Assembly: GCA_036172245.1 (NCBI GenBank)
Contig: JAYWIR010000001.1
Span: 2,914,001-2,978,000, forward strand
DNA length: 64,000 nucleotides
Direction of reading: 5' to 3'
Origin: Raillietiella orientalis
Taxonomy: Eukaryota
In this document: one piece after another, positions 104 to 60,730 of the stretch
How the letters are laid out: the number at the start of each line of letters is the position of its first letter
How positions within the stretch are numbered: position 1 is the first letter of the stretch
Notes under the pieces: model-generated
The model's database searches: none
The model's input: the letters and a program-made list of their open reading frames with translations, nothing else
What the model was told of the DNA's origin: nothing
Made by a program: the position numbers and the translations under genes

Positions 104-3100
104 CTGAATGCCATTTCATTAGTAGGAAAGGGAAACCAGGAATTTACCTGAGGCATGAAATTGGACGAATCGGCTCGGGTGCCCTTTGGGTAGATGCGGC
201 TCAGCTGCCGCTTGTTGTAGTTCACGAATTCTATGGCCTGAGACTTCAAGTGCCCTAGAGCGGTTGTTTCCGGATACGAAGACATTTGAAAGTGCAGGTT
301 GCGCTCTGAAACGCAAAGCATCCTGAACTCGGAGATTCGGGAAGATGTTCGCTGAGCCGAGCCCAGATGCTCAGATGATTTCAGGAGCCGAGCACAGATG
401 AAAGGTGAGCTCCCGTTCAAGAAAACAGAATGGCCTTTCGTCTAGACGTTTCTCGTATCGCCCTCGTAATCTCCCATCCGCAGTTTGTTGGCCAGTCGGA
501 AGAATAACTGACCAACAAACCGGGAAAAGGAAAATCGAGCAAAAGGACAGAGCTGAAGCATTCGCATTTCGGGTGGTGAAAGAGGTTCGACTTCTGATGA
601 TGACTTCTTCCATTCCCGTTTCCATGACGAGCCTGGTGACACGGGTTTTATTTTTTCTTGGTTCGCTACGTTCTTGGTCTGGAGACTCACGAAGCTCCTC
701 AACACTGTTCCTTGTCACCTGGGGGTGACTCTTTCAATTAGGGGGTAGCCCAGGAGGGGACCACCCTGTGAATCCAGAAAGGCTCCGAAGGAAGGGAGTC
801 CGTTCCTCTCACTCTTGGTAGAAGAACAGCGAAGGGAACCTTTTCCCTATTCTCTCCGGAGGGACTCCCAGGAGGAGGCCAATCCTCGTTTCTTCTTCGA
901 AGGGAACCCGGAAGGGATCCGCTGCTGGAATTTGTTCTCCGCAAGGGAACCGCTCCTTGTTTTTCCTCCTCCTCTGAAGAGAAGAACCCCAAAGGGACGC
1001 CTCCAGATTTCTCTGGAGGGTTCTTCTTCACATTCCGGAGAGGTGTCGGTCCACCAGCTCCATGGTACGAGATGGCTGGCTCCATCTTCGCAACCGAGAG
1101 GAAACCCGAAGGGTTTCTCGATACCTGGAGGGATCCCCGGAGGGTCGACCTCCAATCTCGGTCTGTCAACGGGGGCAACCGACTTCCACTTGTTCCACAC
1201 CCGAATGCAGTCCAGCCAGAGTCATCTTTCGGGAAGACCTAGAAACTCCCACAGCGCACCCGTTTCTCTGGAGTCGATGCTTCACGGATATTAACACACG
1301 CAACGCTGGGTGCCACGCTCAGAGACCACAACCACACGGCCGCCAACACGGGCCGGTGGCACAGAAGAATCTCTAGACAACCATTATCGAAAGAGACAGA
1401 AGGGTTGATGAGAGTTTTTGGAGGTGGTGAAATGACTTTAAAGCGACCGTTTTCAATCTAAATAATCAATGAAATGAGGGAAAGGAAAAAAATGGCAAGC
1501 ACTCGACTCGTCGAGAGAGAACTTGAAGTTCCATTCCGTCTTTCTTCACGACCGAAATAATGCCAGGAAGGAGACCACGATCCACACGCATGGAAGTTTC
1601 AGACGAGACAAAGTTGGGTTGGGAATTCCTCACGGGATGACTGCAGCTGGAAGTTATCGAAAATAATTGCAGCATCACGCCCACATGACTGTTCTTAGAA
1701 TAACCGTCCTCGAGGTAATTGCGAGGTCATCTGCATGGCGAAGCCAAGAAACGAGGCAAACCGCAACGGGAACTTCTCTTGACTCAGTGAGGCTTCGTGA
1801 ATCGAAAGGGAGCAGCAAGCATTTATCCAGCGGGAGGTACAGCAGTCAGCCAGATGCTTGATGGGGGACCACTGTTTCAAGGCCGTCCGGGCGTGCACGG
1901 AAACGCCTTCGTGGTTGATCGTGGTTTGAACGACAAGGGTCTCGAGGAATGCCGAGGAACACTGTCCTTGAGTATCGCAGGAAACGCGGCTTATCTGGAT
2001 GCAGGTTGGGCACGATGACCGCGGGGAATGGAATTTGAGGAACAGCGTGGTGAAGTCACGGAGATTTGCATGTGAGAATCACAATCACAATCACGTGTGA
2101 GTACGGTGATGAACGCCGCGATCAGAAAGGAGTTCTGAAAGCAATTTCCATCTTTAGAATGCATGTCCACCGACTGGAAAACATCTTTCGAGACTTTTGG
2201 CCATCGGCAGCTGGGTGCAGAACAGTCTCTGGCAGATGTATCAGAAGTTTCTTGGGAAGGCAAAACAGGGATCAGAAAACAGGAGTATGAAGGGGGAAGG
2301 GAGGAGAGGAGGAGCATTCGATCAGTTATTAGCGATGCAAAAATTATATCTAGTTGTAAGTTCTCTGCTCCAAAAATTTCGAATCGCTGCTCAGATCCTG
2401 TGGGCCAGATTGATAAGGACCACGAGGAACGTAGCTAGAAGGAGTATGCAGCTAGCAATGCTGTTAATTTCAAACGGTGGGGCTAAGAGCTCATTTGAGA
2501 CAGGTGATTCCAGGAGGATTCCAAATCATGGCTCATGGCAACGGGTGATGGAAACACTCTGAGGCTGAAGTGTCCGTGAAACGTCCTATGAGGCGACAAA
2601 AGGAATTCGACTTCCTCGTACTTTCGTATTCTTCGCCTCTCCGCGCGATGAAATGCTCAAGGGAAGCGGTGTCTTCTTCGCTTTCGAGCCTTCCATCTTC
2701 TAGGAAGCAAACTGAGCGACCGAATCTAAATTTTGTTTTTTCGAACCGACAACCCCACCGTTGTTCCCAGATTCTCCAAGAATCTGGTGTCGATCGTGTC
2801 GGGAATCTCGGGATCCCCAACAGGAAGCGAAGGTTTATCCGTACTATCGCGGTCTAGCGATCTAACTGATGGAGGTTTTTCCGAGGTTTTTTTGAGCGGG
2901 TAGTCAAGGCAACGGCACGCAGAACCGCCTGACTTTTAAGAATGCTGTTTTTGAGGGTCCCCAGTGCCATGCGACCGACAGGAACACATCAAACGTTCTC
3001 GTTCCTGTTCATGATTCACACTTCTAATCATTTCGAATGAGGGCGCGCTCGCGCATCTCTCCAAGAGGGGTGTCAGGGAAAAGCCCTTTTTCAACGAATG

Positions 3101-6100: not shown

Positions 6101-9100
6101 AAGGACAAGTCTTTTGAGGATGGAGAAGATGTGGTTCAGAGGTTAAATTTCAAGAAATCGGAACGGTTTTTTTCTCTTTCCAGAACAATCTAAAATTATA
6201 CACACATTCCTACACATCAGCATGATTTTTAGAATACCTTGTCATTAATCAGCGTTCCAGAATCCTCCTTTTCCTCGTCTTCTGTGTTCAACTGCCCTTT
6301 GAGGAATAATTCCAGCTCCTGCTTTTCCAATTCGGGTTTCAGTTTCTTATTCTTGATCAAAATCTTTCTTTTAAGCTGGTTGGGAGAAGGCAAGGGAACT
6401 CCTGGTTCCAACTAAACAGGAACGGTGAAGGCTGGGTTTTTGTCATAAGTGGTGTACCGGGCATTCTGGGAGAGGTTCTTTTAGCAGGAGATCCCCGAAA
6501 ATTTCGTCGCAGTATTTGGCAAGCTTGTACTGCTGAAGCTTGCAGCAGTGGTTCTCAAATGACAAAATCACGGGATATTCAGAAGTGACGAAAGCGCAGT
6601 CTCTGATGGCGTAGATGACGTCCTTTACCGTAACGATTCGTGGCGGATCGATACACCGCACATTACCTTAAATAAAATGTCGGTGCACATGGCCTTCCCG
6701 TGAGTGATGATCGGTTCCTCATCCTCTCCTTTGCCGTCCCAGCAATCCAGCTCTATGCACCGGCATCCGGCCAGGAGCACCTGCCTGTACATTTCGACGG
6801 AGGATTTCCCTCCAAACTGGCGTCCGGTCAGGTACGTGTTGTGGGAAGAGTTGATGTAGTAATGTGCTAAAGGCTGGTCCATGTCCTGGTAGATGTCGAG
6901 CCGGTCCAAGAACACCGGAGCGTTCTCATCAGACATGAGGTAGCGGATCAAGCCGTCTCTACTAAGCTTTTCTGGAACAGTGACGAATTCTGTTACACGC
7001 TCTTGTCCGCAATGACTCGAAAGAGTTGCGCAGAGGTCAGAGAAAGTGCATCTTCCGGAATCCAAAGCGAAAGTCAGTAATCGACGTTGCCTTCTTATAT
7101 GAGAACTCAGCAACGGCATCAGAAGAATCGCAAGGAAGACGGAAAGTGTCCCTCCTTCCCCACAGTCAGTAGAAGCACAAGTCTCGGTAAGATCACTCGT
7201 AGGGGGATCCCTGAAGGTCAGCCTGGGAACCCAAAAGGGACGAAATGCTCAAGGAACCCGGAGTCCCCTCTCAAGGGAAAGTCTCCCTCTCTTTCCGATC
7301 GCTCGAAGAAGAAGGAAAACAGGAGGCGGTGAAGGTTGTTGCGCAAAGAAGTCACGTGAGAGGGAACCTTTTACCCTTCGCGCAAGGGAACTCGCAGAGA
7401 GATTTTCTGACGATCCGAATCGAAAGCGAAAGATTACTTTCTTCCTGGAGAGTTTCGTCCTGCTCGTAGTTGCAGATAATTTGCATCGCTCTGGCTTCGT
7501 CGTAGAATGGGTACAGAATTTCATTCAGCCTGGGATCCCGCTGCCTCTCGTTCAGGAAGGTGACGAACTGGTCGATGGTGATGTAGTCCGTTTTTCCCTG
7601 AGTTCTGGGGAAGGGGGGGGGAGGGAACCACCAAATGATGGGTGCAGCGAATGAGGGCACGCGCGTCTGGAAATGACTCACATCATCTGGAACAGCTCGT
7701 CGATGTCACTTCTGGGGCAGATATTATGATAGAGCTGATAGAACTTGTTGAAGGTGAAATCTGCCTTTTCTATGACGTCATTCTAGAAAAGAAAATATGG
7801 AAGAATTAGCAGTAGGTTTCCGACCGACTTGCGGTTCCCTCACACACTATGACCGGTTGGTGCAGGCCAGCTGACGAGCTTTCAGAACAGGCACCCACGA
7901 ACAAACCTGCTTTTGTCACCATTCTTTTCTTTTCTTTTCTTTCTTTCTTTTTTTTGAAGGGGGGGAAAGGGAAGGGAGTGTGGGGGTCACATCACGCATG
8001 CTGATTATGCCGAAGCGAAGAGTCAGTTGCAGACTCTCATGCGAAAATTCTTCATGCGCAACATGCGCTCCGGCAGGAATATCTTCGCTACCGCAACATC
8101 AGCGAGGGGGATTCACTTTCAGCTTCCCAAACTCATTTGCACGCGCTGCGCAATCTTAAGTCCGTTCTGGTGGAGGTCGGGGTAGAACAATCTGACTCGG
8201 CATCGACTGCTGAGGGCTGAAACCGTGCTTTAAGCTGAAAACTGGTTGCAGAGCAAATACAAGCTGCGGATTTCACTGAACTCGTTGATGATGGTGATGC
8301 TGGTAGGTTCGTTGCCGGTAGGTCTCCATCATGGGACCATCATCAGTTTCTTTCAGGAAGTGATTTGAGAAAGGTGGGTGCCTCGAACTAGAGCAATACC
8401 CTTTGTACTTTCGAAAGTGTTTTACCGAAAAGCAAAAAAAAAAATGTGGACCCACATTGATTCGGCCCGGGACCGATCGCCTTAGCATACATCGTTTAAC
8501 CTTTTTTTTTCTTAAAGGCCAGTAGCGACCTCACGAGGACATTGTTGCTGTTGACCTCGGATGATGGAAGCCCTTTTGGGTTTCCTCTGTTTCGGCTTCT
8601 TTCCTTCGAGATTTTTTTTTTTTTTTTGCTTTCTTTTTTCGGGTTTTCTTCTTTTGGTTCTGGAGCGCTGAAGGACCTTTCGCCTAGGGGCTCACGAGCT
8701 CTTTCACACTGTGCGCCACCCAAGGTCGCGCGTAGCAACTCTTCCAGTTATAGGATGTAGCTCCAAGAGGGATCACGCTACGAATCAAAGAAGGGCTTCA
8801 GAGGAAGGAGTTCGTTTCTCTTATGCTTGGGAAGGAATCCTGAAGGGAACTTCGCCCTGGTTGCCTCCGGAAGGACCCTCCGTTTTGTGGATGCCACCCC
8901 TCATTACTTCTCCGGAGGGAACCCGGAAAGAATCCGCTCCTAAATTTCTTCTCCGGAAGAGAATAAGGAAGACAACCCCAAGGGACGCTTCCCGATTTAT
9001 CCGAAGGCTCTCCCTGAAGGGAGCAGCGCGCTTCTTACACTCTGGAGAGGTGACCCTCCGAAGGAGGGTATCAACCAGCTCCGTGGTACGCGATGAAGAA

Positions 9101-12100
9101 TCTTCCCACGAGGGGAGGGGCGGCAGTTTTTACAGCCGAAGAGAACCCAGAAGGGAACCGGCTCTTCTTGGCTCCTGGAAGGAACCCGGAAGGTCATTCC
9201 AAGCCCTGCCAGTCTGCGAAGGCATCCGGGGGTTTCCAAATTCCACAGATTCCACAACCGAAGCCTACAGGCCAACTGGAGTCATCTTGCGAGAACGACT
9301 CGAAACCCACGAGGCACCCCCCACTTGTCAACGTCGATTCTTCCCCGGGAGGGAACTCGCGACGCTTTGTGCCACGCGCGAAGACCGCAGCCACACGGCC
9401 GCCGCCACGGGCTAATTGCCTGGTATTACAGATCACCTCCAGCAACAGAGGCACCTCAGACAGTTTTAAAAACGTTCAAAGAGTTTCACAAGTCACCATG
9501 AAAGAGCTTAGCTTTGAGGGACTCCGTTCCCTCCAGTTTGAGTGATTCCAAGCAGAGCCAGAACCGGCAAAGACGGAAGGAGGATGCGCGGAAAGAAGGA
9601 AAAAAGCAAAGTAGGAACGGAGCGACTCGTGGATGCTGGAAAGATTGCTTCGAGCCAGAGATGTTTCGCAGCACCGGACGCTAGCATCCTGGGAGCGTAG
9701 GGTTCGATGTACCGGATGAAGGTGGGCGCTTGGGGATCACTTCTGGTCCCAGACGCATGGCATTCAAGGACCACTCAGAGATGCGCGCGCGCGCACCGAG
9801 AAAGGAGCGCATGCAGGAAGTCGCAGCCGCCAGACGTTCCACGAGAAAGTGCGCAAGAAGTTCTTCGCATTCTCGCATGTCGCTCCATCGCCTGATTCCT
9901 TCCTGTTTCGAAACGCAGGACTCCGCGGTACGCTCCAAGAAGAAGGGATGGGCAAGCTCCATCAGCCGCTATCGACTTCCAGGCAAGTGTGCCTGCAGCT
10001 GCTCTGGGAAACTCGGACCAAACAGCAGGTGGTCAGACGTGAATCCTCCTCTGGCGAAGGCAGCTGTGCGACTTTCTTGGTTGTGCTCCAAGCGGGACCA
10101 GAGACCAGAGAAAGAACCAAAGATGCTCTTGCAAGAAGCAGCGCCGTTCCGAACCACATGCCCCACGTGCCGAGCACTTGCTCCACCGACTCGCACCAGA
10201 TGCTTCCTCTCCTGCAAGAAGCGCCCACGCTTCCAAGTCTGCAGAGTCGCACGTGCAGACACGCGCTCATCTCCTGTCCATTCCACCATCATCCAGGAAT
10301 GAATGTCGTCGGCGCCAGAAATTCAAGCCAGCCGGGCACCAACGGCGGACGATTCGACGTGCCTCCTCCTCTTTCCCTCCGGTGCCGGAGCGTCCTCTAG
10401 CGCCCACGGGAGCGTCTACGGCGACTTCCGAGCGTTCCTGCTCCTGGACGCTTCCGGTTGCCTGCTCCCGATCCCGTACTATCGGTGCTGCGTCTGGGCG
10501 CATCCGCGAACCGAGGTGTGCTTGATCTCCCTGGATCGTGCGAGAATCGCCGCCGGAGCCAGAAGCGGGCCGGAACGCGCCGATCCTGCAGGAACAGGAG
10601 ACAGGCACGGCTCGGGATAGCGACGGGCCGAGCGGAGTCGTCGCCGTCGCCGTCGCCGTCGCGACCTCACCTCGTCCCGGAGAAAGCGGAGACCGTGCTG
10701 CTCGACCCGCAAGCAGGTCCGTTCGCCCGCCGGACGCACGCTCCGGGGCGCGCGCCGGGGGCAGACCGGCAGCGGTCGGTCGGGGGTCGCCGGAAGCGCA
10801 GCGGCGTCGGGCTCGCTCGGTTGCCGGACTCTTCGCGGGAAGGGGGAGGCCACGTCTTGAACACGATGGCGGTGGCGCGCGATGAGCGGGGCAGGACCGG
10901 CCTGCCCTTTGCCATGACGATCCCGGAAACGAGGCGGAAAGACTGGCACCTCGGGCCTGGACGCCTGCGGTCGCTTTTCAAGGAGTATTTTCCTTCCTGC
11001 CCGCGCGAAGAGCAAGCACGAAGCACGCGGGTGGTCCAACCTTCCAAGCTACTGACATCACCTCCTGAGGAATCGACGCACCGAGAGCTTTGACGCGGGC
11101 TCGAGGGAGCGGCGCCAAGCACTCCTGGGTCTCTTGGCGCCACACGACTTCTCGGAAAGGGGAAGGGGGAGAGAAGGTGGTTCAAAGCACTAAGGCGGCT
11201 CCTCCTGACAACCCCCTTCCCCCTCCTCTGGACTGCTCGTCGCAGACCGGCCCTTGGGCGGCGACGACGAGGCCGGACGGGTCCAAGAGGCGGCGAAGGT
11301 TGTGGAAAAATCCCCTTCCCTCCATTCCTCTACGCGATTCAGGATCTTCCAAAACGCAGCGTTGTGGACCGTTCCAGATGAAGCACCTGGGGAAGTGGCG
11401 AGGAAGAGGGAGGATCCTGATTGGCAGACGAACTCCCTCAATCCGTCCTTGATTCCTGCTTCAATCTCGTCCCCTTCAGAGGATGGAGATCTGGCACCAG
11501 GAGTGAAGGATGAAAGGAAGGTGGGAGCAGCTCACACGCTGGGAGGGAATGCCCAAAAGCGGGGCCAAGGAACCCCGGTCTCTTCGCATGGGGATCCGGG
11601 GATTCGCGCCCCGGCTGGTCCCCCTCCGCTTGGTCGGAAGAGCACAGGAAAGAAGAACGGAACCCTCGCCCCCTTGGACGCCGCTCCTTTGCTGGCCAGG
11701 AAGCCGACCCATCCACCAGCAAGGAACTTCCGAACGGGCACGGGATCTGACGCGTGCGTTCCCTATAGGAATCGGCTGCAGGGTGTCTTAGGAGGTCACT
11801 TGCTCGGCATCGTGGAACGCGGTCCGTCAAAGAGATGCTCTCCGGAGAATCTGGGTTTACCAGAAGAAAGATTTGGGGGAACTTTCAGGCGGCCCTCCAA
11901 GCCAAGAGGAAAAAGCGCCTCCCCTAGAAAGTGGGGAGCGGGGAGAGGGGATTGAGCCCGCGTGGCGCCTGCAGAGACTCTGTCCACTTACCCTTCACGC
12001 AAGATCAGCGAGGAAAAACCATCCCCTCCACGTGGCAGCTTTGCCTTTCTCCCCCCTAGCCCTACGGCCCCATGCGTTTGGTCTCAGCCAGATAGGTTTT

Positions 12101-18100: not shown

Positions 18101-21100
18101 ATTCATGTTCTTTTCGAAATGAGGATTGGGGTGAGATGGGTCCACATCATTCTCAACTCTTTTTTTGAGTGTGCAGCTCGGAGTTTAGTCCCAGTAACTT
18201 TTGCTGTTCTTGAACACGATCTGTATCCTGTAGCTTTCACGACGCAACCCTTAATAACCGGAATACCAAAACCTTACGATCTTATTCTCCGATAGGTCTT
18301 GCATCGTCTTTCCGAGATCAAATTGGATCAAACACGTCCCTGCCCAAGAAGATGAACGAAGACCAAGCAGGTGTAATGAGGTGGCTAAGAGCGATTTTCA
18401 ACAGCGCTGGTCTGCACGGATTCTGCATCCATTTTTCTCACTTCTTGATGACTAGAAGAGCTGGTCTGTATGCTAGCCCCTGCTTGGGGCTAGCATACAG
18501 ACCAGCTCTTTCTTCAATATCTTACAGCCCGTAAAGCCATAGCGGCATCTCGGTACACGCACCTGCCTGCCGGGCGATTTCTGTGGCACATCCTGTTCAC
18601 TTGCTCCGTATATTTTTTTCGCCTGCCGTTTACGCGGGAACATTCGAGAAACAAGGGTTCCTCCCTCAGAAACAGGATGAGTACTCGGTGTTAAGTAGGA
18701 GGCTGGGATTCTAGAATGCGCACCACTTTGGACCTTTAGAGAATAAGCCGTGCTTCGAGCAGCAGCGGCAAACACCCCTTTGCAGTTCTCCCTATTCACG
18801 TGCATCAACAAATCAAAACCTTCGCAAAATTTGATAATCTGAAAAACTCTTTGTCCCCCAGTCGCTTCGTGTGCCTTTCATTTCACGTGATGGTCAACTC
18901 ATCCGAACTTGCCTCCCGGTCCGATTTCTGTATGCTTGCTGCCAAGAGCTACACCCTGATGGTCTCAGCAGCACTGCACAATCCGCTCGAATTCCATCTA
19001 GCTGGAAGAGAATTCTTCCTAAAAGGATGCATCCCTGAACTCCTACCGCCATCTTGCTACCACATCGGATTACCAGAGTTTCCAGTTCGGGAGGATTCAC
19101 AAAAGTTTCTATACGATTTATTCTCATTGTCATGATCAGTGCGAAATCGAGAATTTTTCTTTTCATCAAAGCTGCGTTCGATGTTTCTGTTCGGAAAATG
19201 AGGAATGACCAAGGGACGAAATACGGGGAAGCGAGAAATTCCCACCTCCCTTCCTGACAAGAGGACACACAATTTGTTTTCATTCTTCAATCGACGCTGT
19301 TCTTTGAAAGTGGTACTCTTCGATGAGTCACACGCACCCTGAGGTGGAGTACACAATGCTAAGGAGCTTTGTGGCCGCCCCTAAGGAGGCGAACGGCTCT
19401 TCAGCATTCTGCGAGCCAAGAAAAGAAAAAAAACGCTATAGGGAGAGCAGCGAAAACAGAGGAAGGCTCAAAGGATGCGCCATGGTGACAAACTCTTTAG
19501 TCCCTCTGAGTGAGTGGGTGGAATAGGAGATGGTGCACCATTCCTGATTGGAATGCGGCTTCTTTCGTCCGTGTACTTCTCCATGCTAGCAACGATCCTT
19601 CGAGAAATCGCCACTGACATTTTTTTTTTCTTAAAAAAAAAAAAGGAAGAAAGGAACAAAGAAAAATGCATGCACGCGCGCACGCAAGCAGTTGATGGGC
19701 TGCGGATGCAGAGAGAAACCGAGCAGAGCTCGCCACGTGCCTTACTAGAAAAGGCAGGGAGAGCGATGGACCAAGGGAGGTGCGGAACCGACTGGTAAGG
19801 AGGACTTCGCTCATCTCCTCCGACTCGGCAAGCAAGCGCCTTCGCGCAGCTTCCTTCGCCAAACATCCGCTTAAAAGCGGTGACCGCAGTTGCCGGCCTG
19901 CGAGGCCACGGATGGGCTGTATTAGGAAGGGGCAGGGCTGTGGCATTCTCTTTCACAAGGAGAACTCACTGCTCCTCCATGCGTTTCCGAGTCGCCTTGG
20001 TATCCATCGATGAGGTTTTATATCAGCGGGAAACTCTCTACAGGGGAAGTGGAAGAAGGACAAAAGGAAAACACCAGCATCTTTCATGGAGCGCGAAAGA
20101 GTTGACGAATCCTAGACAGCCTCAGCTGCCACGTATCGGACAGAACCTGAAGATCGGCGGGCAGGAACCTGGTGTTTGCACAATCCGCGGTCGACTTTCG
20201 GAAGAGGAGCGTGGTAGAAGACATCCATTAAAGGAGTCTGCGCCCCACTTTGCTTTCGGAGATCTTGGTCTTCCGGCGGCTTAAGCTTGGAAACGAGGCC
20301 GGTCGTACCGAGCGTGGAGACTCGAAGCTGAGGGGAAGAATCCGACCGAAAATCTTCTCACCGCACCACCATCACTGTGTGCGAGCATCGGCAAGATGGA
20401 CGTAACCAAAAGCGAAAGGAGGAAGGAACACGTGTCGTCTCTGCAGGTGATTTCGCCGAAGGCGAGCGCCCTTCGAGGTGCGGAGCGTTTCTTTCCGATC
20501 TCGCTTCCGCATTTGAGGCCGTCTGCAACCGAAACCTCACGATGAACTGTGGATGTGTTTTCTTTTAGATCACGTGGCAGAAAGTGGTCTTCACTCAGAA
20601 CTGGCCGTGCAGTAAATGAGCTGCTCCGAATGAAAATCTCACCGAAGCAACCGACGAATTTTCGCATCCTTCAATTCCACCATGCAACCGTACTAAACTA
20701 AGCACAGAAGCAGTGACTTGACGGGACGTAGAACAAAGACATGGACTGATACTGAAGAAGAATGGTGCTTTTTTTCTTTTTTATAGATATAAAAAAAAAA
20801 AACTTGTAATCGTCTCCTAATGCAGAGAGCATGCTGAAACGTATCGTACGACATGCTCTGATACAGAACCATGCACATAGACACAAACACTTAACTGCTT
20901 CCTCAAGCTTGTCATGGGACACAGGTTGTTTGCTTTGGTGTTATGTGTCACACTACGTAAGCCATCTTGCCATACCTGATAATATTCCGAAAGCAAGTAA
21001 TAAGCTAAAATTAGCAATCAATACATTGCATTACATGTTTTATTTAACATGGAAGAGATCAAACCTGACGCGCAGACTGCACACTCGAAAGGATCAAAGC

Positions 21101-24100
21101 GTTTCTATGGGAACCCTGATGTCGGAGGGGAGGAAGATCAGGTATTCATCGCATGGTAAGTTTCGTTACAAAAAAGAAGGATGATGAATTTTGCTGTTAG
21201 CAGAACAATGGAGAACAATCACTCATTTTTCATGAATAATAATTTGCAAGTCACACACACACACACACGTGGAACAGGGCAACGAATAAAATGGAATCGT
21301 CGTTGCCCTACTACCGAGATAGTCAACTACGACATGAATAATAACGAAATTAATCTGCAATCCTCCAAAATTAGAAGCACGATTTGGAATAGGATGATGG
21401 TTAATCTAATGAAGTTACCATTACCAAGCCACGTTCACGTCGCCACATCCTCGAAAGCGCTAAATGCTGGAGCCAACAGCAGCTGTTATTGCGAATGAAG
21501 GTTAATGACTGAGGGAACGGAGGAGATGATTATAAGCAAAGGAGCAAATTGAATCAGCAGGAGATGATGAACCAAGGAAGTCTGGGATAGGGGGAGGAAG
21601 GGAGGAGGGGGGAGGTTGGCAACACACGGCGTGGAAACGTGGAAATCGGGTGCAGAACGGACTGGCAGTGCAGTGGCTCCAGCGTGCAGGGGTGCGCGGA
21701 AGATTCCGACTCGGGGAACTTCTTTAGCAAATTATTTCAGGGGCTGAGCAAAATCTGTGCAAGTGACGAAAGACTAATCACCTTGGCTGTTTCTGCATCC
21801 GGACATACGATGTGTTGGTAGTTGATGTTGACCATGTCCGTGCCGCTGCAGATTGTCAGAGATTTCTCGTCGGAGTTGCTCCCGTGCTTTTGCAGCAGCT
21901 GGTTCAGAAGGCGGATGTCCTGCAACAGATCAGGGAGGAGTGTGAGATGAGAACCACATGGAACTGCTCCAGCTCTGCCAGCATCCTCGTCGCCTCGTCA
22001 CGAACGGATCCAGCTTACTCATCCCCCAGCGAGAGAAAACCCCTTTGCCTTGCAAGAATCCAAGCACGGGGGTGAACGAGAGGGCGCCCGGAGTCGAGCG
22101 AGCGAGAACGCGGCGGCACCGCAAGCGCGCGTTCCGTCGGAGTGACACGCAGCAACCCGCGGTGGCGGCCTGCGTGGCATCGAGCGTTGTGGGTTCGAAT
22201 CCCCACGTGGTGGATCAACGCCGACAAGCAGATGAGTCGTGGAACTCGACGCGGCGACGACGCTGGTTGGTCCATGGGCTCCGGAGGCCACTGGTGGAAG
22301 CCGGAAACCTGTAGAGTGGCCGGGATTGGAGGTCGACCCTCCGGGGGTCCCTCCAGGTATCGAGAAACCCTTCGGGATTCCTCTCGGTTGCGAAGATGGA
22401 GCCAGCCATCTCGTACCATGGAGCTGGTGGACCGACACCTCTCCGGAATGTGAAGAAGAGCCCTCCAGAGAAATCTGGAGGCGTCCCTTTGGGGTTCTTC
22501 TCTTCAGAGGAGGAGGAAAAACAAGGAGCGGTTCCCTTGCGGAGAACAAATTCCAGCAGCAGATCCCTTCCGGGTTCCCTTCGAAGAAAAAACGAGGATT
22601 GGCCTCCTCTTCGGAGTCCCTTCGGAGAGAATAGGGAAGAGGTTCCCTTCGGTGTTCTTCTACCAAGAGTGAGAGGAACGGACTCCCTTCCTTCGGGGCC
22701 TTCCTGGATTCATAGGGCAGCCTCCCCCCGGGATTACCCCCTAGAACTGGAAGAATCTCACGCACCCCCCTCAGGTGACGTGGATAGTGTCAAAGAGACG
22801 GGAAGGAAAGCAGCGAAAACAGAAAAAGCCCAAAAGGATTCATCATGGTGACAAGCTCTTCAGTCTCTCTGAGTGGGTGGAATAGGAGATGGTGCACCAT
22901 TCCTGATTGGAATGCGGCTTCTTTCGTCCGTGTACTTCTCCATGCTAGCAACGATCCTTCGAGAAATCGCCACTGACATTTTTTTTTTCTTAAAAAAAAA
23001 AAAAGGAAGAAAGGAACAAAGAAAAATGCATGCACGCGCGCACGCAAGCAGTTGATGGGCTGCGGATGCAGAGAGAAACCGAGCAGAGCTCGCCACGTGC
23101 CTTACTAGAAAAGGCAGGGAGAGCGATGGACCAAGGGAGGTGCGGAACCGACTGGTAAGGAGGACTTCGCTCATCTCCTCCGACTCGGCAAGCAAGCGCC
23201 TTCGCGCAGCTTCCTTCGCCAAACATCCGCTTAAAAGCGATGACCGCAGTTGCCAGCATGCAAAGCCACGGATTAGGAGATTAGGCTGTGGCATTCTCTT
23301 TCACTGCTCCTCCATGCGTTTCCGAGTCTCCTTGGGTGCCTTGAATTCCTTTCTCCTTTGGGAGAACGTCTTTCGTTCCAGTCCTTGTTATTCTTCACCC
23401 TTATCTATGACCTGCGATCCCCTAACAGGGAACATCGTCCAAGCTGTGGAGCTATCTATGTGATGCTTCCTCCTAGATGCATCCAGGTTTCGAAATCGCA
23501 CGGGGATGCAATTAAGGAGCAGGACCCGCCCTTGACCACGTTCGACATTTTGAAGATCGGAGTATCATCCGTGAATGGCGCCAAACTGTTGGCGCGCTGC
23601 CCAGTTATAGGCCGATGCAATTTCATTGGCGCCGGCGACGCCAAATGCTTCAACTTCACCACTGTGGCTTCCCAGTAACCGACCCCGATGAGCTCCTTCC
23701 TTTGGGTGATGCGGAATTTTCATGTTAAAGAACTGAAGACTTGAGGAAATGTTGCAGGGTGCGCTGGTGACCATGCAAGGGATTTTAGGCTAGTGATGGC
23801 GCTTTCGAGTGCGACTCCTGTGACGTTGGTTGTTTTCGTTATGCTGGGCATTCCTTGACAACGAAGTGAGCTGTGCACCCACATTGGTGTGCGGTGTTTG
23901 GAACTCACACTACTCGTAGGGTGTGCGTTCCAAACATCACACACCACTCCTAGCACACAAACAATTACTTCAGAATACCTTCATGCAAATTTGGTGGATT
24001 TATTACAACAACAACAGCACTAACAACTGGAAGCATATCCGTCGTGGCAGAACAAGCATTCGGCTCATCGCTTTCCGAAACATCTTATAAGGAAAGCGGG

Positions 24101-27100: not shown

Positions 27101-30100
27101 ATGGCAGAAGCCAGTGCATAGAAGTTTTAGCAAAAAGTAGTCCAAGTCTCTAAATCTGTATCAATCATTGTGTGAAATTTCTTTAAAATTAAGGATTTAG
27201 TTTAAAGATTTTAAATTTTAGTTTAAAATTAAGGATCGAGTTGTCTTGTGTAGTGATCGGTGGAATTATTCAAATTACCGTTGGATTAATTTAAACAGAT
27301 CTGATCGACTATGATTGCTCAGCAGAGATTCTGTGACCTTATTCAATCCCTGGGGAAAGCGCCGACTTACTACCAAACAGCAAAAGTTTCCCTTTGATTT
27401 AGTCCAGGACTTCGTGACGATGTTCCTGAGTATGCAGTGTTCTGTTCTTGCATATGCAGGTTTGAAGTAGAATTCCTTCGTCAAGAGAGTACTTATTAAA
27501 ACTTTTAAACCAGTTCCAGATTGTCTCACAAAAAAAGGAAGCCATTTTGTGGATGCGATCGTGCGGCGGAATGAGGAAATCCTTTTCTGTCTGCGCAGTT
27601 CTTCGACACGGTTCCACGCCACCCAAGGGTGGGTAATTCTTCAAGATAGGGGGGACCCTGGGAGAAGACCCCTATTTCCGAACCCCTGCCAGGAAGGACT
27701 CGGAGTCCGTTCCTCTCACGCCTGGGGAGGGATCCCCAGAAATGGAGATCACCTCCACCCTGGTTGTCTCTGAAGGGGAATCCAGAAGGGGACCTCCTTC
27801 CTTATTCTCTCCGGAGCACCCCCGGGGGGGTCCGCTCCATTCTTTCTTCTCTGAAGGAAACCCGGAAAGGATCCGATCCTAGAATTTCTTCTCCGGAGGG
27901 ATCCCCCGCAAGGGATCCGCTCCTGTTCTTACTCCTCGGAAGTGAACCCAGATGGGACGCTTCCGAAATTCAGAAGGACGCAGCTTCCCCGAAAGGATCG
28001 GCTCGCTTCTCTGTACTCTCTGGAGAGGTGGTGGCGACACACCTACTCCATCAGTACGACGCGGAGGGTCCCCCCGGAATAGGGGGTCCGCTCCTTCACA
28101 ACCGGAGGGGGAACGCCGTGATTCCTGGAAGGAATCGGAGCTCGACCCCCATTTGCCCCGGCCCTCATCGGGGGGCATCCGGTTGCAACGGCTACCAGTT
28201 CCGCATCCGGATGAATGTGAGCCAACCAACGCCATCCTGTGGGGTGAACTCGGAACCCACGACGCTTGTTGGTGCCACGCGCGGAGACCATCGTAACCAC
28301 ACGGACTCTGAGGCGGTCTTGTAAAAAGTATAGCATTTGCTGAGATATACGTGTAATTTATGCGTTGTGTGGGCGAGAATCTACAAGATTGCTTATTTTT
28401 CCGTGGAAAATTACAGAATCTTATGGGAATCGGAAGCACTGAGCAATTTCTCATACATTTTGAAAATTTAGAAAATGAAATACCTATAAAAGATCAAACT
28501 TTTCAAGATGAGGTGTTTGATGTGGAGGGAAGAATAGAGGCGGAGACATTCAGACGCCAAGTTATGATGATGAAGGTGAACTCGATTCTATCCCCCAGAA
28601 CCCTGTAGCGGTTCACGTTTCCCTGGATTGAACTCCAGGAAGATTTGACGACCCCCAGTAGTAAACTCTTCGATTGGTTGAATCTTACTAAGCATACAAT
28701 GTCTGCACGCTTTTACGGTCCATCTAATGAACCACGGAAGGAAGGTTTAGAAGAAATCAGTCGAGTGCCGTCATTATGGATCTGCTTTCAAAGTGAACTC
28801 AGAAACCAATGAAGAGAGAAGAACCTATGAAGACACAAACAAGGTACGTCTTACCTTTGGCAGTCCTCCTGCTCTGATATCGTTCACCTGACAAAGTTCC
28901 AAGACATCTCCATCCTTGAAAGAAGAAAATTTCAAATGAACATGGATATCTGAAACATGAATTCTTTGGCATGTTTGCACACTTTGTTTGAGAGACCTGT
29001 CTTTCTTTCGAAATGTGTCTGGTAAAACTGCTACCAGAGAAGACCAACGATTCCTAAAACATAGGTGGCATACGCAACGTGTGCGATAATCGGAATTTGT
29101 TCGATTTAAGTTGTTCAGAAAGATGAGTCCCTCTTTTGTCCCTCTTCAATAGACAATCCCGCATTTTGCCTTTCGAAGGACGGAATCTGTATGTAAGTCG
29201 AGAGAAGAGAGTCGCGCGCTTTTGGTTCCCGTTATTTCTGCTTTCTTCTCTGAGACTGGTCCAGGAGCGGAGGAAGGCTTTTGGGAGGAAGTGCTCCTGC
29301 TATAGCAGGAGTACCTGGAATGACGAGCATGGAGCGGCGTGTCGCTCGCGAGAACACGAAATGTGTGCACATCGTCTTCCCCTTGCAAGAACTCTTCGCG
29401 GCTGCTCCTCGTGGAACTTCACCGTGGAACAGGAAGAAATTGTAGTTTCCGTTGCCATATCGCACCGCTCCATGGTAACGCGAAAAAGTCACCATACTCC
29501 TAACTTATTCAAGGGTGCGAAAGAAAAAGGACGGTTACTTGTCGACGGTTACCTTCGTATGGATCTTCGTACGGACTGAATACCATACAAAAAAAAAAAA
29601 AGATGCTGATGGCGTGAGAAGCAGAGCTACATGCCGTGTTTCGCAACGAATTTCACAAGCTTCCTGTGGTCTTCGCGAGCGTCTCAGGGTCCTTTTCGAC
29701 CTCGATCTCTAGTTTGGGCGATTCCTGTTTAGCATTGGCATTTGCGCACACCTTCCGGAGTCCTCTTCTTGGGGTTGCCCCGGGGTTTCTTATGGTGATC
29801 ACTCTGTGTGTAAGTGGTCCCCACATTCATGGATGCAAATTCTGATCTCTAATTATCGCATGCAAGCAAGCTCACGGCCAGCGCATCGGATTTTCCATTT
29901 AATGGCTGCTGCTACCTCGCGATTCTAAATGGAAAATACTCAATTATCGGGTACCTCCCTTCGTGGTTGCTTCTCTTTTTTTTTTTTCCTTTTCCTTTTT
30001 TTTTTTTTTTGCAATTTCTGCACAGAAACTGCTATTGCCGTCGGTTTGTCGGCACATCAGCACTAACGGCACTCCGGACAAAAAACTGTCGCGTTTGTTT

Positions 30101-33100
30101 GCACTGTTCGCGTATATTTTAGCGTCAGAACAAATTCAACCACATGTTTTCTGTTTAGCCTCATTCGAGTTGTTGTTGTTGTTGTGTGTGGGCGTGCGTG
30201 CATCAGCGAGAGCGCTGTTGCTAAACAACGATCTCTGTTATGCTACAACTTACATCGAAGCGGAACTGGAACCTGCCTGCTGCTACCATTACTACTGTGT
30301 TCATCAGGAACGCAGAGTCGATTTATTCATAATAATCTTTACTGCATCGAGTAAGGATGGAAGGTCGCCCTATAATCCGCCCTGATCGCATTTTCAATAG
30401 CACAGAGACGAGTCGTGCGGAGCGGCAGCTCAGGAATAGGGAAAGATCGAAATTGTCTGCAGTTCGAAACGCCCAGTTTTTTAGGCGAGAGACAGGAAAA
30501 CGTCTCCGATGGATTCCGCTGCATCTTTCGCTCGAAGAAACGCGCGGGAGCATCCGAGAGCGAAGAACTGCAACCTCGGCTGCGACTCCCATTGCGAAAA
30601 ATCGATAGCGCTTTGGCGAAGTGAACTCCGATCGGTTCCGAAAAGCGAAGAGTACGAATCATCCCTCCAGCTGCGCATCAGCAGCCCCTGATGCTTAGGG
30701 AAACCGAAACCTATTCTCCCTGGACCGCTGAAGTACACGAAGGTGAGATGCTTGCAAGCCGCGGACAGTCCGCTGCCCGCGTGGCCCGCGGCGAAGCGTG
30801 GTCAAATGGTGCTCGGGAGGCGTTCGTCGCGGCGTCGGCTGCCTCGCACGTTCAAGTCGAGAAAATCGATGGGGCGTTCATCGTTCCACTGTGCCCCTCT
30901 TGCGAGGAGTATCCAGGTCACTCCCTCGATGGGGAAGGCCATTGCATCTTCGTGGGGTGGAAAGTGAACCCCACGGTGGGTGAGAGGCAGCGGCAGAAAC
31001 CGCGCGGCTTGCAGCGTTCGAAAACCTCGCCTTGAGGACGAAGGGCGCAAATCCGATCCAGGGAATTTCGAGCGGCGCTGGAGTTTTTTTCCCTTCGCCA
31101 AAGGATGATGCGAGGAATCTGCACGTCGTGGGAGAACGCAGATTCTGGACGCAGATCATGATTTCTGGAAGTTGCTCTCACTATGGTCACGCCACCAAAC
31201 AAGATCCCTAAATCCTATATATATGTATATGTATATCCCTAAATCCTATATATATGTATCCTATATATATATATATATATATAGGATTTAATATATAGAT
31301 AGATAGATATGGATATAGATATATTGTAGTTCCAAGTCCTCCAGCTTGCCAGTTTATTCTCTCTCACTCTGAGAGAGAGAGGAGCAAACGTTCCCTGCGG
31401 ACACAAAAGTCTGGTAGGAACACGCGCGACGGTCTTACACTGACAACGGAAGAGGCAGTGAGTGAAAAGACTACGCGCTCCGGTGGCAAAAGAAAAAAGA
31501 GAAAAAGCGAACGCTGTGGGTTGATTCATCGGGATGGAGACGGATCCAAAGATGCCAAAGTTCACTCAGAAACTGTCTAGCAACCTATGGATCCACGCCG
31601 CCCAAATTATCTCCGGAGCTTTTAAGGAGCTCTCTGCTGCGAAATGATCTGGAGGAGAATTACCATCAGCGTCTATCGGCCTTCTCGGCGCTTTGCAAAC
31701 GAACGCTTGGGGTATGGAAAGCATGGGGTGGATCCGCGTCGAGGGTAGCTCTGTTCGAAGATGGAAGCTGCCCGTCGATAACGTCTGCGAGCCGACGACG
31801 TCGTTTCAACTCCGCGAGTGACACGCGGCATTACGGTCCCTCGCCCTACGCAAGACCCCAAGCCAAGAACTATAGGAGGAACTCCGTAGGGACCACCCTA
31901 CGGATCCAAGAGGGGGCGCCGGAGGAAGGAGTCCGTTTCTCTCGCGCTTGGTAGAAGAACCCCGAAGGGAACCCTTGCCCTGGTTGCCTCCGAAGGAAGT
32001 CCCGAAGGGAATCTCTTCCCCATTCTCTTCGGAGGGACCCTACGGAGGGGGTCCCTCCTCGTTGCTCCTCCAGAGGGAACCCGGAAAGGATCTTCTCCAG
32101 GAATTTCTTGTCCGCAAGGAACCGCTCCTTGCATCTCCTCCTCTGAAGAGGAACCCCGAAGGGACGCATCCCAGTTTTCCGCGAAAGGTCGTGTCGGGGC
32201 CGCCTCCCCATCCAGGCACGCGAGGGTTCGCAGGGGATGTATTCTCTCTGGCGACGCGAATGCGGTCGCCTGGCCGACACGAATGCGGGCCGATCCGGAA
32301 GCGCAATGGCCGCCTTGCAGACTAACGGAAGCGGGGACGAAGGGCGAGCTCCATCGACGGCAGGAACGGTCCAGCCTTCTCCTCAGATGATCTCCTCCCG
32401 CGGGGAAATGCATCTCGACCCCCCAGGGCACCGGTCTCGTGTCTTCCGGAAAGAGGTGGCGGAGGAGCTCTGTCGGAGGCCGCGTGATGGGGTGATCGGC
32501 GAGAGCGAGTGCACACGAGCCCTAAGGGGTACAAAGGGAGGGAGAAGGAGGGGGAGAGGCGCACCGCGCGTCCTGGGCACTCTATGGCATGAAGACTCCC
32601 CTCCTTCGGATGGCCTTCGTCGGCTCCTGGATCTCTACTGCGGAGACCGAGCGCCCTGGGTGGCAGGTCTACCCTGCTCCGCCCTGTCGGCGAGTCGGGA
32701 AGGAACCGGGAAGATTGGTGGGGGCTTCCGCCTAGCGGGGGATCTCTTCCGGGGCGCGGCGGATCCTCCCGCGGTGCTGCCATCGACACGCGGGGGAAAA
32801 TCGGGTCACCTTCCCTCTGACGGACACGCTGGCCGAAGAGAATTTTGGGCTCCGGCGACCGCTCCGGCCGGTGGCTCTGAAGAAGGGTGGCTCAGGCTCC
32901 CCAGAGGACTCCTGTGACCTGCCCGGCTCCAGCTCGTGGCTTCCTTCCGGCGCTCTGGGATGGCTGCCTCCCTCCCCCCTCTTCCTCAAGATCCCTTGAG
33001 GAAGATCTCTTGGTCTCCAGGAGACCAGAGCAGGGGAAAAAAAAATTCTTCTTGAAGGTCAAGCGCGCGAGCAGCGTGCAGTGTGGGAAGCAGCGGGATG

Positions 33101-35450: not shown

Positions 35451-35533
35451 AGGCGTGAAGGCTCCGCACAGGGAGCAGCTTTGGTGCGCCTCGGACATGG
35501 TGTGTATTGTGTTTTCTGCGTTCCCAGGTCGAG

Positions 35534-59999: not shown

Positions 60000-60730
60000 C
60001 TGTTGCTCACAGCATACTGGAGGTCGGCAATGAAGAGATGCTCAGGCATAGCGGGTTCGCATCCCGCCCACGGAAGGGCCGATGCCAAGAAGTGGGTGCA
60101 TCGTGAGTTTCGAGTGCCTTCCTGCAGGATGACGCTGGTTGACCAGAAGGCTTCGGGTGCGGCACAGGTTGAGGCCGGAAACTGGACGTCCTCTGACTGT
60201 CTGGGATTAGAAGTTGACCCTCCGGCGTTCTTCCAGGGATCAAGGAGCCCTTCCGGGTTCCCCTCCGGTCTCTATCCTGTACCATAGAGCTGGTTGATAC
60301 CCCCTTCGGGTGTTGCCTCTCCAGAGTATCAAGAAGCACGCTGCTCCCTTCGGGGAGCGCCCTTCAGGGAAATTCGGGAGCGTTCCTTAGGGGTTCTCTT
60401 CAGAAGAGGAGTAACGAGGAACGTTTCCCTTGCGTGCGCCCTCCGGGGAAGGAATTCTAGGAGAGGATCCTTTCCGGGTTCCCATCGAAGAAGAAATGAG
60501 GAGCGGTTCCCCCTCCAAGGGGTTCCTCTACCAAGGGTAAGAGGAACGGACTCCTCCTTCCAGAGCGTTCCTGGATCCATAGGGTAGCCTTTCTCCGGGG
60601 TTACCCCCATAACTCGAAGAGTCACACACACCCTCGGGTGGCATGGGCAGGGTTAAAGAGCTTCATGAGCCCCCCCTAAGGAGGCGAACAGTTCTTCAGC
60701 ACTCCTTGATAACCAAAAAAAAAAAAAATC
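60000..60730 (+). mobile_element. SINE-like family copy H with poly(A) tail
   Basis: T-arm GCGGGTTCGCATCCCGC at 60051-60067, core, 3' stem-loop at about 60650-60702, A-run at about 60715-60728. The 5' boundary is approximate. Confidence 0.75.

What the first reader, a model, noticed from the sequence alone, without database searches (positions are those of the whole stretch)
22150..22795. Abundant tRNA-headed SINE-like family with an unusually structured, tetraloop-rich core
Seen: at least 9 copies or fragments in 64 kb (645, 7200, 8610, 19323, 22150, 27580, 31870, 49063, 60000). The head has a tRNA T-arm/B-box with a compensatory change between copies (GTGGG-TTCGAAT-C-CCCAC in D, GCGGG-TTCGCAT-CCCGC in H). 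The ~430-nt core is dense in short hairpins (GACCC-TCCG-GGGGTC, CCC-TTCG-GG, CCTCCAGA-GAAA-TCTGGAGG) and repeats a GTTCCCTTCGG-like motif every few tens of nt, like a decayed subunit array. Established: tRNA head + core + LINE-like tail + A-tail is SINE architecture. Inference: I do not recognise this core as CORE, V, Deu/Nin, Ceph or Meta, so it may be an undescribed central domain whose RNA fold is selected across subfamilies.
Basis: partly seen in the sequence, partly recalled or inferred. Interest (0 to 1): 0.8.

Follow-up and report, generated by a model that had tools for sequence, protein, structure and literature searches.

The report
SINE-like retroposon family in gene introns
This is a real family of short, non-coding mobile-element copies scattered through the introns of a phospholipase C gene, but its supposed special RNA fold is not supported, so it is an ordinary lineage-specific repeat.

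Summary
The repeat family is real. I confirmed 8 of the 9 listed positions; the one at 7200 shows only motif-level matches. Copies are 650-820 nt, non-coding and lie in both orientations. Five share one 5' end, three are 5'-truncated, tails are A-rich, and copy F has an exact-boundary 14-bp target-site duplication. The sense strand has no T4+ run in six copies, against 11.9 expected. This fits a Pol III-transcribed, LINE-mobilised SINE.

The tRNA head is only partly supported. There is a T-arm/B-box, but ARAGORN and Rfam find no tRNA, and similarity to real tRNAs covers only 16-30 nt.

The core is a decayed array of a ~42-nt unit. It is not unusually structured: the index copy scores z = -1.3 against dinucleotide shuffles. 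RNAalifold's covariation term is +0.83. The named hairpins are specific to one subfamily.

Dfam, Repbase and SINEBase could not be searched, so novelty is untested. Verdict: a lineage-specific SINE-like family of low to moderate interest.

The parts
22150..22800 (+). Copy A (index copy): head, core and shortened tail. It lacks 21 nt of the head and about 85 nt of the canonical 3' tail.
   Evidence: the tail deletion is inferred by comparison with T19
22189..22206 (+). T-arm-like hairpin of copy A. It holds the only exact B-box (GGTTCGANNCC) in the window, at 22192-22202.
22320..22743 (+). Core of copy A. It is 94-95% identical to the core of copy B, while the heads are 65% and the tails 70% identical (a mosaic).
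646..1359 (-). Copy B: full length, decayed T-arm, A-rich end.
8602..9418 (-). Copy C: full length, ending in an A16 tail.
19315..19443 (+). T19: a 5'-truncated copy with only the 3' tail and an A-rich end.
27583..28318 (-). Copy D: young subfamily, 98.4% identical to F. Its flanks are unrelated to F's, and no target-site duplication was found.
31868..32198 (-). Copy E: a 5'-truncated core fragment.
49063..49798 (-). Copy F: young subfamily, bounded exactly by a target-site duplication.
49799..49812 (-). 5' copy of F's target-site duplication, GAAGCAAACGACAA.
49049..49062 (-). 3' copy of F's target-site duplication, GAAGCGAACGACAA (13 of 14 positions identical to the 5' copy).
60061..60750 (+). 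Copy G: 5'-truncated within the head. It keeps the T-arm (GGTTCGCATCC at 60054-60064) and ends in an A14 tail.

Best explanation
A lineage-specific, non-autonomous retroposon family of SINE type, about 650-820 nt long, has inserted repeatedly into the long introns and upstream region of a norpA/PLC-beta4-like gene on the minus strand.

Each element has three parts:
1. A 5' head of about 170 nt that starts at a fixed position. It carries tRNA-like promoter remnants: a D-loop/A-box-like GGCCGTGTGGTT and a T-arm/B-box.
2. A body of about 430 nt that is a decayed tandem array of a ~42-nt unit. The unit reads roughly GGATCCCTTCCGGGTTCCCTTCGGAGAAGAAA...AGG. Its CCC-N4-GGG motif produces the many small hairpins.
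3. A 3' tail of about 100 nt with an invariant CACC...GGTG hairpin and an A-rich end.

Inferred mechanism: RNA polymerase III transcribes the element from the internal promoter. A partner LINE's reverse transcriptase then copies it by target-primed reverse transcription, giving target-site duplications, A-rich ends and 5'-truncated copies.

Shown here: family membership, the element boundaries, one target-site duplication, the lack of coding capacity, the absence of terminators on the sense strand, and the internal periodicity.

Inferred only: Pol III transcription, tRNA ancestry, and the LINE partner.
For: - **Dispersal.** The 8 loci lie in both orientations.
- **Common 5' end.** Five copies (A, B, C, D, F) begin at the same position with unrelated upstream DNA. 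Three (G, E, T19) are 5'-truncated.
- **A-rich ends.** C has A16, G has A14, B and T19 are A-rich, and D and F end in A4.
- **Target-site duplication.** F is bounded exactly by a 14-bp duplication with 13 of 14 matches.
- **Independent insertion.** D and F are 98.4% identical, but their flanks are unrelated (z = 0.1).
- **No Pol III terminators.** There are 0 sense-strand T4+ runs in six copies, against 11.85 in dinucleotide shuffles (0 of 500 shuffles had none). Background is 5.2 runs per kb, and internal A4+ runs are present.
- **Non-coding.** 0 of 28 element ORFs hit Pfam.
- **Not a MITE.** No terminal inverted repeats in the 3 copies tested.
- **tRNA-like T-arm.** The T-arm region matches real tRNAs better than shuffles do: A P = 0.017, G P = 0.033, head consensus 0 of 60. 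The only exact B-box in the window sits in copy A.
- **Periodic body.** The motif is enriched, the period is 40-42 nt, and a unit HMM gives 48 hits across six copies.
Against: - No tRNA is detected in any head by ARAGORN at default settings or by Rfam at E <= 10.
- The 5-copy head consensus is not called a tRNA at thresholds of 90% or higher, and it does not fold into a cloverleaf.
- Similarity to 33 bacterial tRNAs spans only 16-30 nt, so SINEBase's rule of at least 60% identity over at least 60 nt is not shown to be met.
- B-box matches with up to 1 mismatch are not enriched: 17 against 17.8 expected.
- Only 1 of 5 full-length copies has a clear target-site duplication.
- No reverse transcriptase or endonuclease was found in 308 of the 373 ORFs of 80 aa or more that were scanned, so no partner LINE was seen.
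- At 650-820 nt, the element is at or above the 75-662 nt range of SINEBase families.
- Genome copy number and transcription could not be examined.
Confidence: 0.7

Rival explanations
1. One reading: the core is an undescribed SINE central domain whose RNA secondary structure, many tetraloop-capped hairpins, is kept by selection across subfamilies.
For: - Copies D and G fold better than shuffles: z = -2.56 and -2.87.
- Summed over six copies, tetraloop hairpins number 32 against 22.0 +/- 4.7 (P = 0.017), and TTCG-capped hairpins 4 against 0.4.
- On the RNAalifold structure, paired cells are 90.1% against 87.9% shuffled (1 of 500), and the covariation score is 0.227 against 0.196 (3 of 500).
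- Some indels between copies are whole hairpins, for example GCTCCC-TTCG-GGGAGC in G.
Against: - The index copy A gives z = -1.07 and -1.30, and copy C gives +0.07.
- D's antisense strand folds even better than its sense strand (-3.06), so there is no consistent strand specificity.
- RNAalifold finds only 54 pairs in 9 short helices. The covariation term is +0.83, which is a penalty.
- The two measures that resist the effect of relatedness are not significant: pairs with changes on both sides 7 against 4.5 (37 of 500), and further pair types 70 of 500.
- The structure was derived from the same six distinct sequences that were used to test it.
- Twelve aligned full-length units share only a 3-bp CCC/GGG stem with a variable loop. 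The energy is -1.7 kcal/mol and 0 of 3 pairs show compensatory change.
- The 8-bp GAAA hairpin is perfect only in A and B.
- Copy A has 3 tetraloop hairpins against 3.65 expected.
Confidence: 0.08
2. The copies are 5'-truncated 3' UTR fragments of an autonomous LINE, or a Pol II-transcribed non-autonomous LINE derivative, rather than a Pol III SINE.
For: - The ends are A-rich, copies are 5'-truncated, and there is a target-site duplication.
- The tRNA criterion is not met.
- The length is large for a SINE.
- LINE 3' UTRs often carry tandem repeats (my own knowledge, no call).
Against: - Five of 8 copies share the same 5' end.
- There are no reverse transcriptase or endonuclease hits in 308 ORFs.
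- The sense strand has no T4+ runs, which a Pol II element does not need.
- A T-arm/B-box lies at a typical distance from the 5' end.
Confidence: 0.12
3. The copies are local segmental duplicates of a tandem-repeat-rich intron segment and are not mobile elements. A MITE-type DNA transposon is a related alternative.
For: - The window does hold segmental duplications: 9543-11044 against 37038-35531 at 99.5%, and 19442-20000 against 22805-23335 at 91%.
- A and B share a 94-95% core inside diverged ends, which points to gene conversion.
Against: - The flanks of D and F, and of all other pairs except A and T19, are unrelated.
- Boundaries are discrete and shared, with A-rich ends and a boundary-exact target-site duplication.
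- No terminal inverted repeats in the 3 copies tested.
Confidence: 0.04

Closest known systems
tRNA-derived SINEs as defined by SINEBase (Vassetzky and Kramerov 2013, PMC3531059; I read the Definitions section and found passages)
   Same: It has a head-body-tail layout, is under 1 kb, interspersed and non-coding, and has a variable A-rich tail. Subfamilies differ by internal deletions or duplications. B-box and A-box-like motifs lie in the head.
   Different: The head does not demonstrably reach 60% identity over 60 nt to a tRNA with the references I could use. The length (650-820 nt) is at or above the database's 75-662 nt range. Copy number per genome is unknown.
CHRS 'quasioligomer' SINE (PMC3531059, passage in the Data acquisition section)
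   Same: The body is made of a degenerate short motif repeated in tandem, and variants differ in the number of repeats.
   Different: CHRS has a ~20-nt motif repeated more than 10 times. Here the unit is ~42 nt, with about 6-10 recognisable full or partial units per copy. No sequence comparison was possible.
SINE superfamilies with highly conserved central domains: CORE, V, Deu, Ceph, Meta, Nin (PMC4824008 and PMC5804259, seen only as search listing and abstract starts; COREBank is mentioned in PMC3531059)
   Same: A conserved stretch sits in mid-body. Positions such as TTCCGGGTT and AACGGACTCC are invariant in the 7 aligned rows.
   Different: Conservation is shown only within this one window. 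No comparison with the published domains could be run, so neither membership nor non-membership is established.
Insect tRNA-related SINEs with central domains, for example HaSE1 and HaSE2 of Helicoverpa (PMC3272025, abstract start only)
   Same: These are arthropod-type hosts, with a tRNA-related region followed by a body and a tail.
   Different: No sequence comparison was possible. The host here has no close relative among the proteins retrieved: 57-70% identity over the aligned exons.

Membership tests
SINE (SINEBase formal criteria, PMC3531059) | Short (<1 kb), interspersed, non-tandem genomic repeat | tested here: met
   The 8 loci of 129-817 nt are dispersed over 64 kb in both orientations. 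TRF finds no array of whole elements.
SINE (SINEBase formal criteria, PMC3531059) | [quoted passage not shown] | not testable with these tools
   No genome is held. Metagenome, viral and prokaryote-genome scans gave no true match. The window holds 8 loci in 64 kb.
SINE (SINEBase formal criteria, PMC3531059) | Head at least 60% identical to a tRNA, 5S rRNA or 7SL RNA over at least 60 nt | tested here: inconclusive
   Rfam finds no tRNA, 5S or 7SL hit at E <= 10 on heads A and D or on the whole window. ARAGORN finds none at default settings. Against 33 bacterial tRNAs, only 16-30 nt around the T-arm match, and the longest alignment (51 columns, 67%) is not above shuffles. Eukaryotic tRNAs of the host were not available.
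SINE (SINEBase formal criteria, PMC3531059) | Internal Pol III promoter (boxes A and B), which SINEBase calls an indication and not a proof | tested here: inconclusive
   There is an exact B-box in A and a 1-mismatch B-box in G at the homologous position. An A-box-like GGCCGTGTGGTT is in B, C and D, with GGCCACGTGGTT at the same place in F. B-box matches with up to 1 mismatch number 17 against 17.8 expected window-wide.
SINE (SINEBase formal criteria, PMC3531059) | Transcribed by RNA polymerase III | not testable with these tools
   No sequencing run was listed. Indirect support: 0 sense-strand T4+ runs against 11.85 expected.
SINE (SINEBase formal criteria, PMC3531059) | Retroposition by a partner LINE: target-site duplications, A-rich or simple-repeat tail, and a 3' end shared with a LINE | tested here: inconclusive
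   A target-site duplication is present in 1 of 5 full-length copies. A-rich ends are present. No LINE was found in the window: 0 reverse transcriptase hits in the 308 of 373 ORFs scanned.
Conserved-central-domain SINE superfamilies (CORE, V, Deu, Ceph, Meta, Nin) | Sequence similarity of the body to the superfamily's central domain | not testable with these tools
   No Dfam, Repbase or SINEBase library was on hand. Rfam gives no hit in the core above noise.
Structured RNA element under selection | Folding energy below dinucleotide shuffles, on the sense strand specifically | tested here: not met
   Sense/antisense z-scores: A -1.07/+0.24, C +0.07/-1.19, D -2.56/-3.06, G -2.87/-1.47. The strand folding gives A core -1.30 and A full -1.69.
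Structured RNA element under selection | Compensatory base changes that support conserved helices | tested here: inconclusive
   The RNAalifold covariation term is +0.83. Pairs with changes on both sides number 7 against 4.5 (37 of 500), while percentage paired and covariation score exceed the shuffles (1 and 3 of 500). Only 6 distinct, related rows were available. The unit-level alignment shows 0 of 3 pairs compensatory.

The most novel reading that the evidence does not exclude
The ~42-nt unit array is a functional RNA module: a string of CCC-N4-GGG mini-hairpins that binds a LINE protein or another RNA-binding protein. On this reading it defines a new conserved central domain shared by SINEs well beyond this species, that is, a new SINE superfamily. 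With only six distinct, related copies, the weak excess of paired cells and of TTCG hairpins neither establishes nor excludes this.
Probability: 0.08. Interest if true: 0.55.

Novelty: new member of a known kind. Interest (0 to 1): 0.25.

Why it matters
The finding matters mainly for annotation.
- The family makes up about 5 kb (8%) of this window and sits in the introns of a phototransduction-type PLC gene.
- Two copies at 98.4% identity with unrelated flanks suggest recent activity.
- The A/B mosaic shows gene conversion or recombination between copies 21 kb apart.
- A SINE body built from a decayed 42-nt array, at the top of the SINE size range, is a modest addition to SINE diversity.
- It would be more than routine only if genome-wide data showed a conserved, covarying domain shared across taxa.

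Tried and rejected
**External searches that gave nothing**
- No whole genome is held for the window.
- No sequencing run was listed for 21000-24000, and no RNA holder was listed.
- Earlier-findings look-ups by place, sequence and words were empty.
- Two metagenome pattern scans gave 0 matches, and a viral scan gave 0.
- A 16-mer scan of prokaryote genomes gave 120 loci that share nothing more with the element. The only blastn hit was 20 nt, so these are chance matches.
- A full-text search for three core motifs found 2 unrelated papers with primer-like coincidences.
- A protein search with the 256-aa antisense ORF found nothing at E <= 0.001.
Central-domain alignments there may bear on the novelty claim.

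**Ideas I rejected**
- TRF finds no tandem array in copies A or D, and only a 16-nt, 2-copy repeat in G. Self-blast of copies finds only 21-35-nt internal matches. The periodicity therefore shows only at motif, autocorrelation and HMM level.
- I suspected by eye that a shared 3' extension lay beyond the A-tail in most copies. Only A and T19 share a flank (z = 132). A-C and T19-C are marginal (z 3.8-3.9, within the shuffle maximum), and all other pairs are at chance.
- The A/T19 flank is a separate repeat: 22805-23335, 19442-20000 and a fragment at 26052-26138.
- I drew a manual cloverleaf for the head, but MFE folding and ARAGORN do not reproduce it.
- Relaxed ARAGORN calls (80% threshold) fall at inconsistent places in different copies.
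- The long antisense ORFs (up to 256 aa) have no Pfam hit, and the indels between copies are not multiples of three. I treat them as an effect of base composition.
- The 'compensatory' T-arm change is real, but it is a single event between two copies. Both changes are CpG-type transitions, so it carries no statistical weight.
Full report
**Setting**

The window has no N and is about 50% G+C. Its minus strand carries a phosphoinositide phospholipase C gene with long introns.
- Pfam finds a PH domain (34364-35083 and 21740-21997), an EF-hand-like domain (7355-7705), the X domain (6628-7248) and the Y domain (76-441).
- tblastn with retrieved relatives places exons from 34788 down to position 2.
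- The X-domain exon is 92-96% identical to norpA/PLC-beta4 proteins of many animals.
- A more variable exon is at most 75% identical to any hit and 51-63% over its full length; nearly all hits are arthropods, mostly insects.
- Summed over exons, the best relatives are 57-70% identical.
- I conclude that the host is an animal, probably an arthropod, with no close relative in the protein collection.

Yes, for the repeat family.
- blastn of 22101-22850 against the window, window self-blast and an nhmmer profile give eight loci: A 22150-22860 (+), B 646-1359 (-), C 8602-9418 (-), T19 19315-19443 (+), D 27582-28328 (-), E 31868-32198 (-), F 49055-49802 (-) and G 60061-60736 (+).
- The nhmmer profile was built from the copies themselves. 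What it adds is that it found nothing else.
- At 7200 there are only motif-sized matches (best 16 nt, E = 0.024) and no nhmmer hit even with --max at E <= 100.
- G and C align over about 650-720 nt at 65% identity, so the full element is about 650-820 nt long.

**Boundaries and retroposon hallmarks**
- Five copies (A, B, C, D, F) begin at the same position, G/A-CCCG..., with unrelated DNA upstream. G, E and T19 are 5'-truncated.
- The 3' ends are A-rich: A16 in C, A14 in G, A-rich in B and T19, and A4 in D and F.
- D and F are 98.4% identical over 741 nt, but their flanks are unrelated (z = 0.1). They are therefore two insertions of a young subfamily and not a segmental duplicate.
- F is bounded exactly by a 14-bp duplication, GAAGCAAACGACAA and GAAGCGAACGACAA, at 49799-49812 and 49049-49062.
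- By my own arithmetic, a match this good between the two search windows is expected about 6e-4 times per copy.
- No clear duplication was found for the other four full-length copies.
- The three copies tested have no terminal inverted repeats.
- None of the 28 ORFs inside copies hits Pfam.
- The 256-aa antisense ORF of copy A has no relative in the protein collection.

**A pointer to Pol III**
- The sense strand of six copies (A, B, C, D, E, G; F left out as near-identical to D) has no run of four or more T.
- Dinucleotide shuffles give 11.85 such runs in total, and 0 of 500 shuffles had none.
- The rest of the window has 5.2 such runs per kb on either strand.
- A4+ runs do occur inside the copies.
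- The copies are related, so this is not six independent tests. Still, the strand asymmetry is what a Pol III transcription unit needs.

**The head**
- The quoted T-arms are present, and copy A holds the only exact B-box (GGTTCGANNCC) in the window.
- With one mismatch allowed, there are 17 B-box matches against 17.8 expected.
- ARAGORN finds no tRNA at default settings. At 80% thresholds its calls fall at inconsistent places.
- Rfam finds no tRNA, 5S or 7SL match at E <= 10 on the whole window or on 201-nt stretches around heads A and D.
- A majority consensus of five heads is not called a tRNA at thresholds of 90% or higher and does not fold as a cloverleaf.
- I also compared the heads with 33 distinct bacterial tRNAs fetched for the purpose. 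Only the T-arm region matches, over 16-30 nt at 83-94% identity.
- That match is better than shuffles for A (P = 0.017), G (P = 0.033) and the consensus (0 of 60).
- B's D-loop-like GGCCGTGTGGTT resembles GGCCGAGTGGTT of a tRNA, but not significantly.
- The head alignment also shows a second T-arm-like segment, GTCGTGGGTT(C)CGAGT..., in all copies. The D/F subfamily has lost the first one.
- SINEBase states that A and B boxes are an indication and not a proof, and it requires at least 60% identity over at least 60 nt to a tRNA. That was not shown here, though the right reference set, the host's own tRNAs, was unavailable.
- The 'compensatory' GTGGG/CCCAC versus GCGGG/CCCGC difference is real. 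It is one event between two copies, and both changes are CpG-type transitions.

**The core**
- The GTTCCCTTCGG-like motif occurs 4-6 times per copy, against about 0.3 expected.
- Autocorrelation peaks at 40-42 nt with harmonics near 80-85 and 124-126 in A, D, G and E, and more weakly in C.
- An HMM seeded with seven units from D, E and G finds 48 full or partial units in six copies: A 9, B 10, C 9, D 7, E 6 and G 7.
- TRF and self-blast see almost nothing, so the array is old and decayed.
- SINEBase describes a precedent, the 'quasioligomer' CHRS SINE, which carries a degenerate ~20-nt motif repeated more than 10 times.

**Is the core unusually structured, or is its fold selected?**

The evidence is mostly negative.
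- Sense/antisense z-scores against dinucleotide shuffles are A -1.07/+0.24, C +0.07/-1.19, D -2.56/-3.06 and G -2.87/-1.47 (30 shuffles each).
- The strand folding gives -1.30 for A's core (10 of 100 shuffles fold as well) and -1.69 for the whole copy (2 of 20).
- Base composition therefore explains most of the apparent structure.
- On seven aligned cores, RNAalifold predicts 54 pairs in 9 short helices at -30.98 kcal/mol, with a covariation term of +0.83.
- Pair counting on that structure gives 90.1% paired cells against 87.9% (1 of 500 shuffles) and a covariation score of 0.227 against 0.196 (3 of 500).
- The measures that resist relatedness are not significant: pairs with changes on both sides 7 against 4.5 (37 of 500), and further pair types 33 against 30.4 (70 of 500).
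- The structure was also derived from the same six distinct rows.
- Tetraloop hairpins with stems of 4 bp or more total 32 against 22.0 +/- 4.7 over six copies (P = 0.017), but copy A has 3 against 3.65.
- TTCG-capped hairpins number 4 against 0.4, with none in B, C or D. GNRA hairpins number 6 against 3.5.
- Twelve full-length units were aligned out of 14; the two from B were left out as near-identical to A's. They share only a 3-bp CCC/GGG stem around a variable loop, at -1.7 kcal/mol and with no compensatory change.
- The 8-bp GAAA hairpin is perfect only in A and B.

**Subfamily relations**
- A and B are 94% identical over the 424-nt core, with sharp edges. Their heads are only 65% identical and their tails 70%, which is no closer than other pairs.
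- This points to gene conversion or recombination between two inverted copies 21 kb apart.
- A and T19 are each followed by the same ~530-bp sequence: 22805-23335 against 19442-20000, 91% overall and near-identical in the middle. A third fragment lies at 26052-26138.
- That sequence is a separate repeat and not part of the element.

**Comparison with what is known**
- The element works like a tRNA-type SINE, and the layout fits. Formal membership is incomplete, as the membership table shows.
- Rfam has nothing for the core.
- Three core motifs occur in no relevant paper of the searchable library.
- Neither result says anything about Dfam, Repbase or SINEBase, which I could not query.
- I therefore rate the family as a new member of a known kind. 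It may already be catalogued for its species.

**Verdict**

The family is real and the SINE reading is reasonable, with confidence about 0.7. The tRNA ancestry is plausible but unproven. The claim of a selected, tetraloop-rich RNA fold is not supported. Interest is 0.25.

Noticed in passing
window 9543-11044 (+) and 35531-37038 (inverted): A 1.5-kb inverted duplication at 99.5% identity copies part of the GC-rich 5' region of the PLC gene into a downstream intron. It could be a recent segmental duplication or an assembly artefact.
   Followed up: no
window 44489-44683 and 44998-45087 (+): These are SRP (7SL) RNA-like sequences below Rfam's gathering score. The first (27.5 bits) looks like an Alu-domain with most of the S domain missing. 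The second (45.4 bits, E = 3e-10) matches S-domain positions 128-220 and lies 315 nt downstream. They may be a rearranged 7SL pseudogene or a 7SL-derived repeat.
   Followed up: partly
window 55040-55162 (-): A 123-nt fragment of eukaryotic large-subunit rRNA (Rfam 86.5 bits, model positions 3022-3144) lies upstream of the PLC gene.
   Followed up: no
window 22805-23335, 19442-20000, 26052-26138 (+): This is a separate repeat of about 530 bp. Two copies lie directly after SINE-like tails and bracket two PLC exons as direct repeats. Their centres are near-identical, which suggests recent duplication or gene conversion.
   Followed up: partly
window 22320-22743 (+) and 739-1161 (-): Copies A and B are mosaics: the core is 94-95% identical with sharp edges, but the heads are 65% and the tails 70% identical. 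This suggests gene conversion or recombination between inverted copies 21 kb apart.
   Followed up: partly
window 53362-53631 (+): An ORF has a sub-threshold SRCR-domain match (E = 3e-5, 24.7 bits against a cut-off of 26.1). It may be an exon of a neighbouring gene.
   Followed up: no
window 7150-7330 (-): Beside the PLC X-domain exon there are motif-level resemblances to the element's core unit, such as TCCGGGTTCC and CCCTTTTGGGTTCCC. This may be a very old fragment, but it is not statistically supported.
   Followed up: yes
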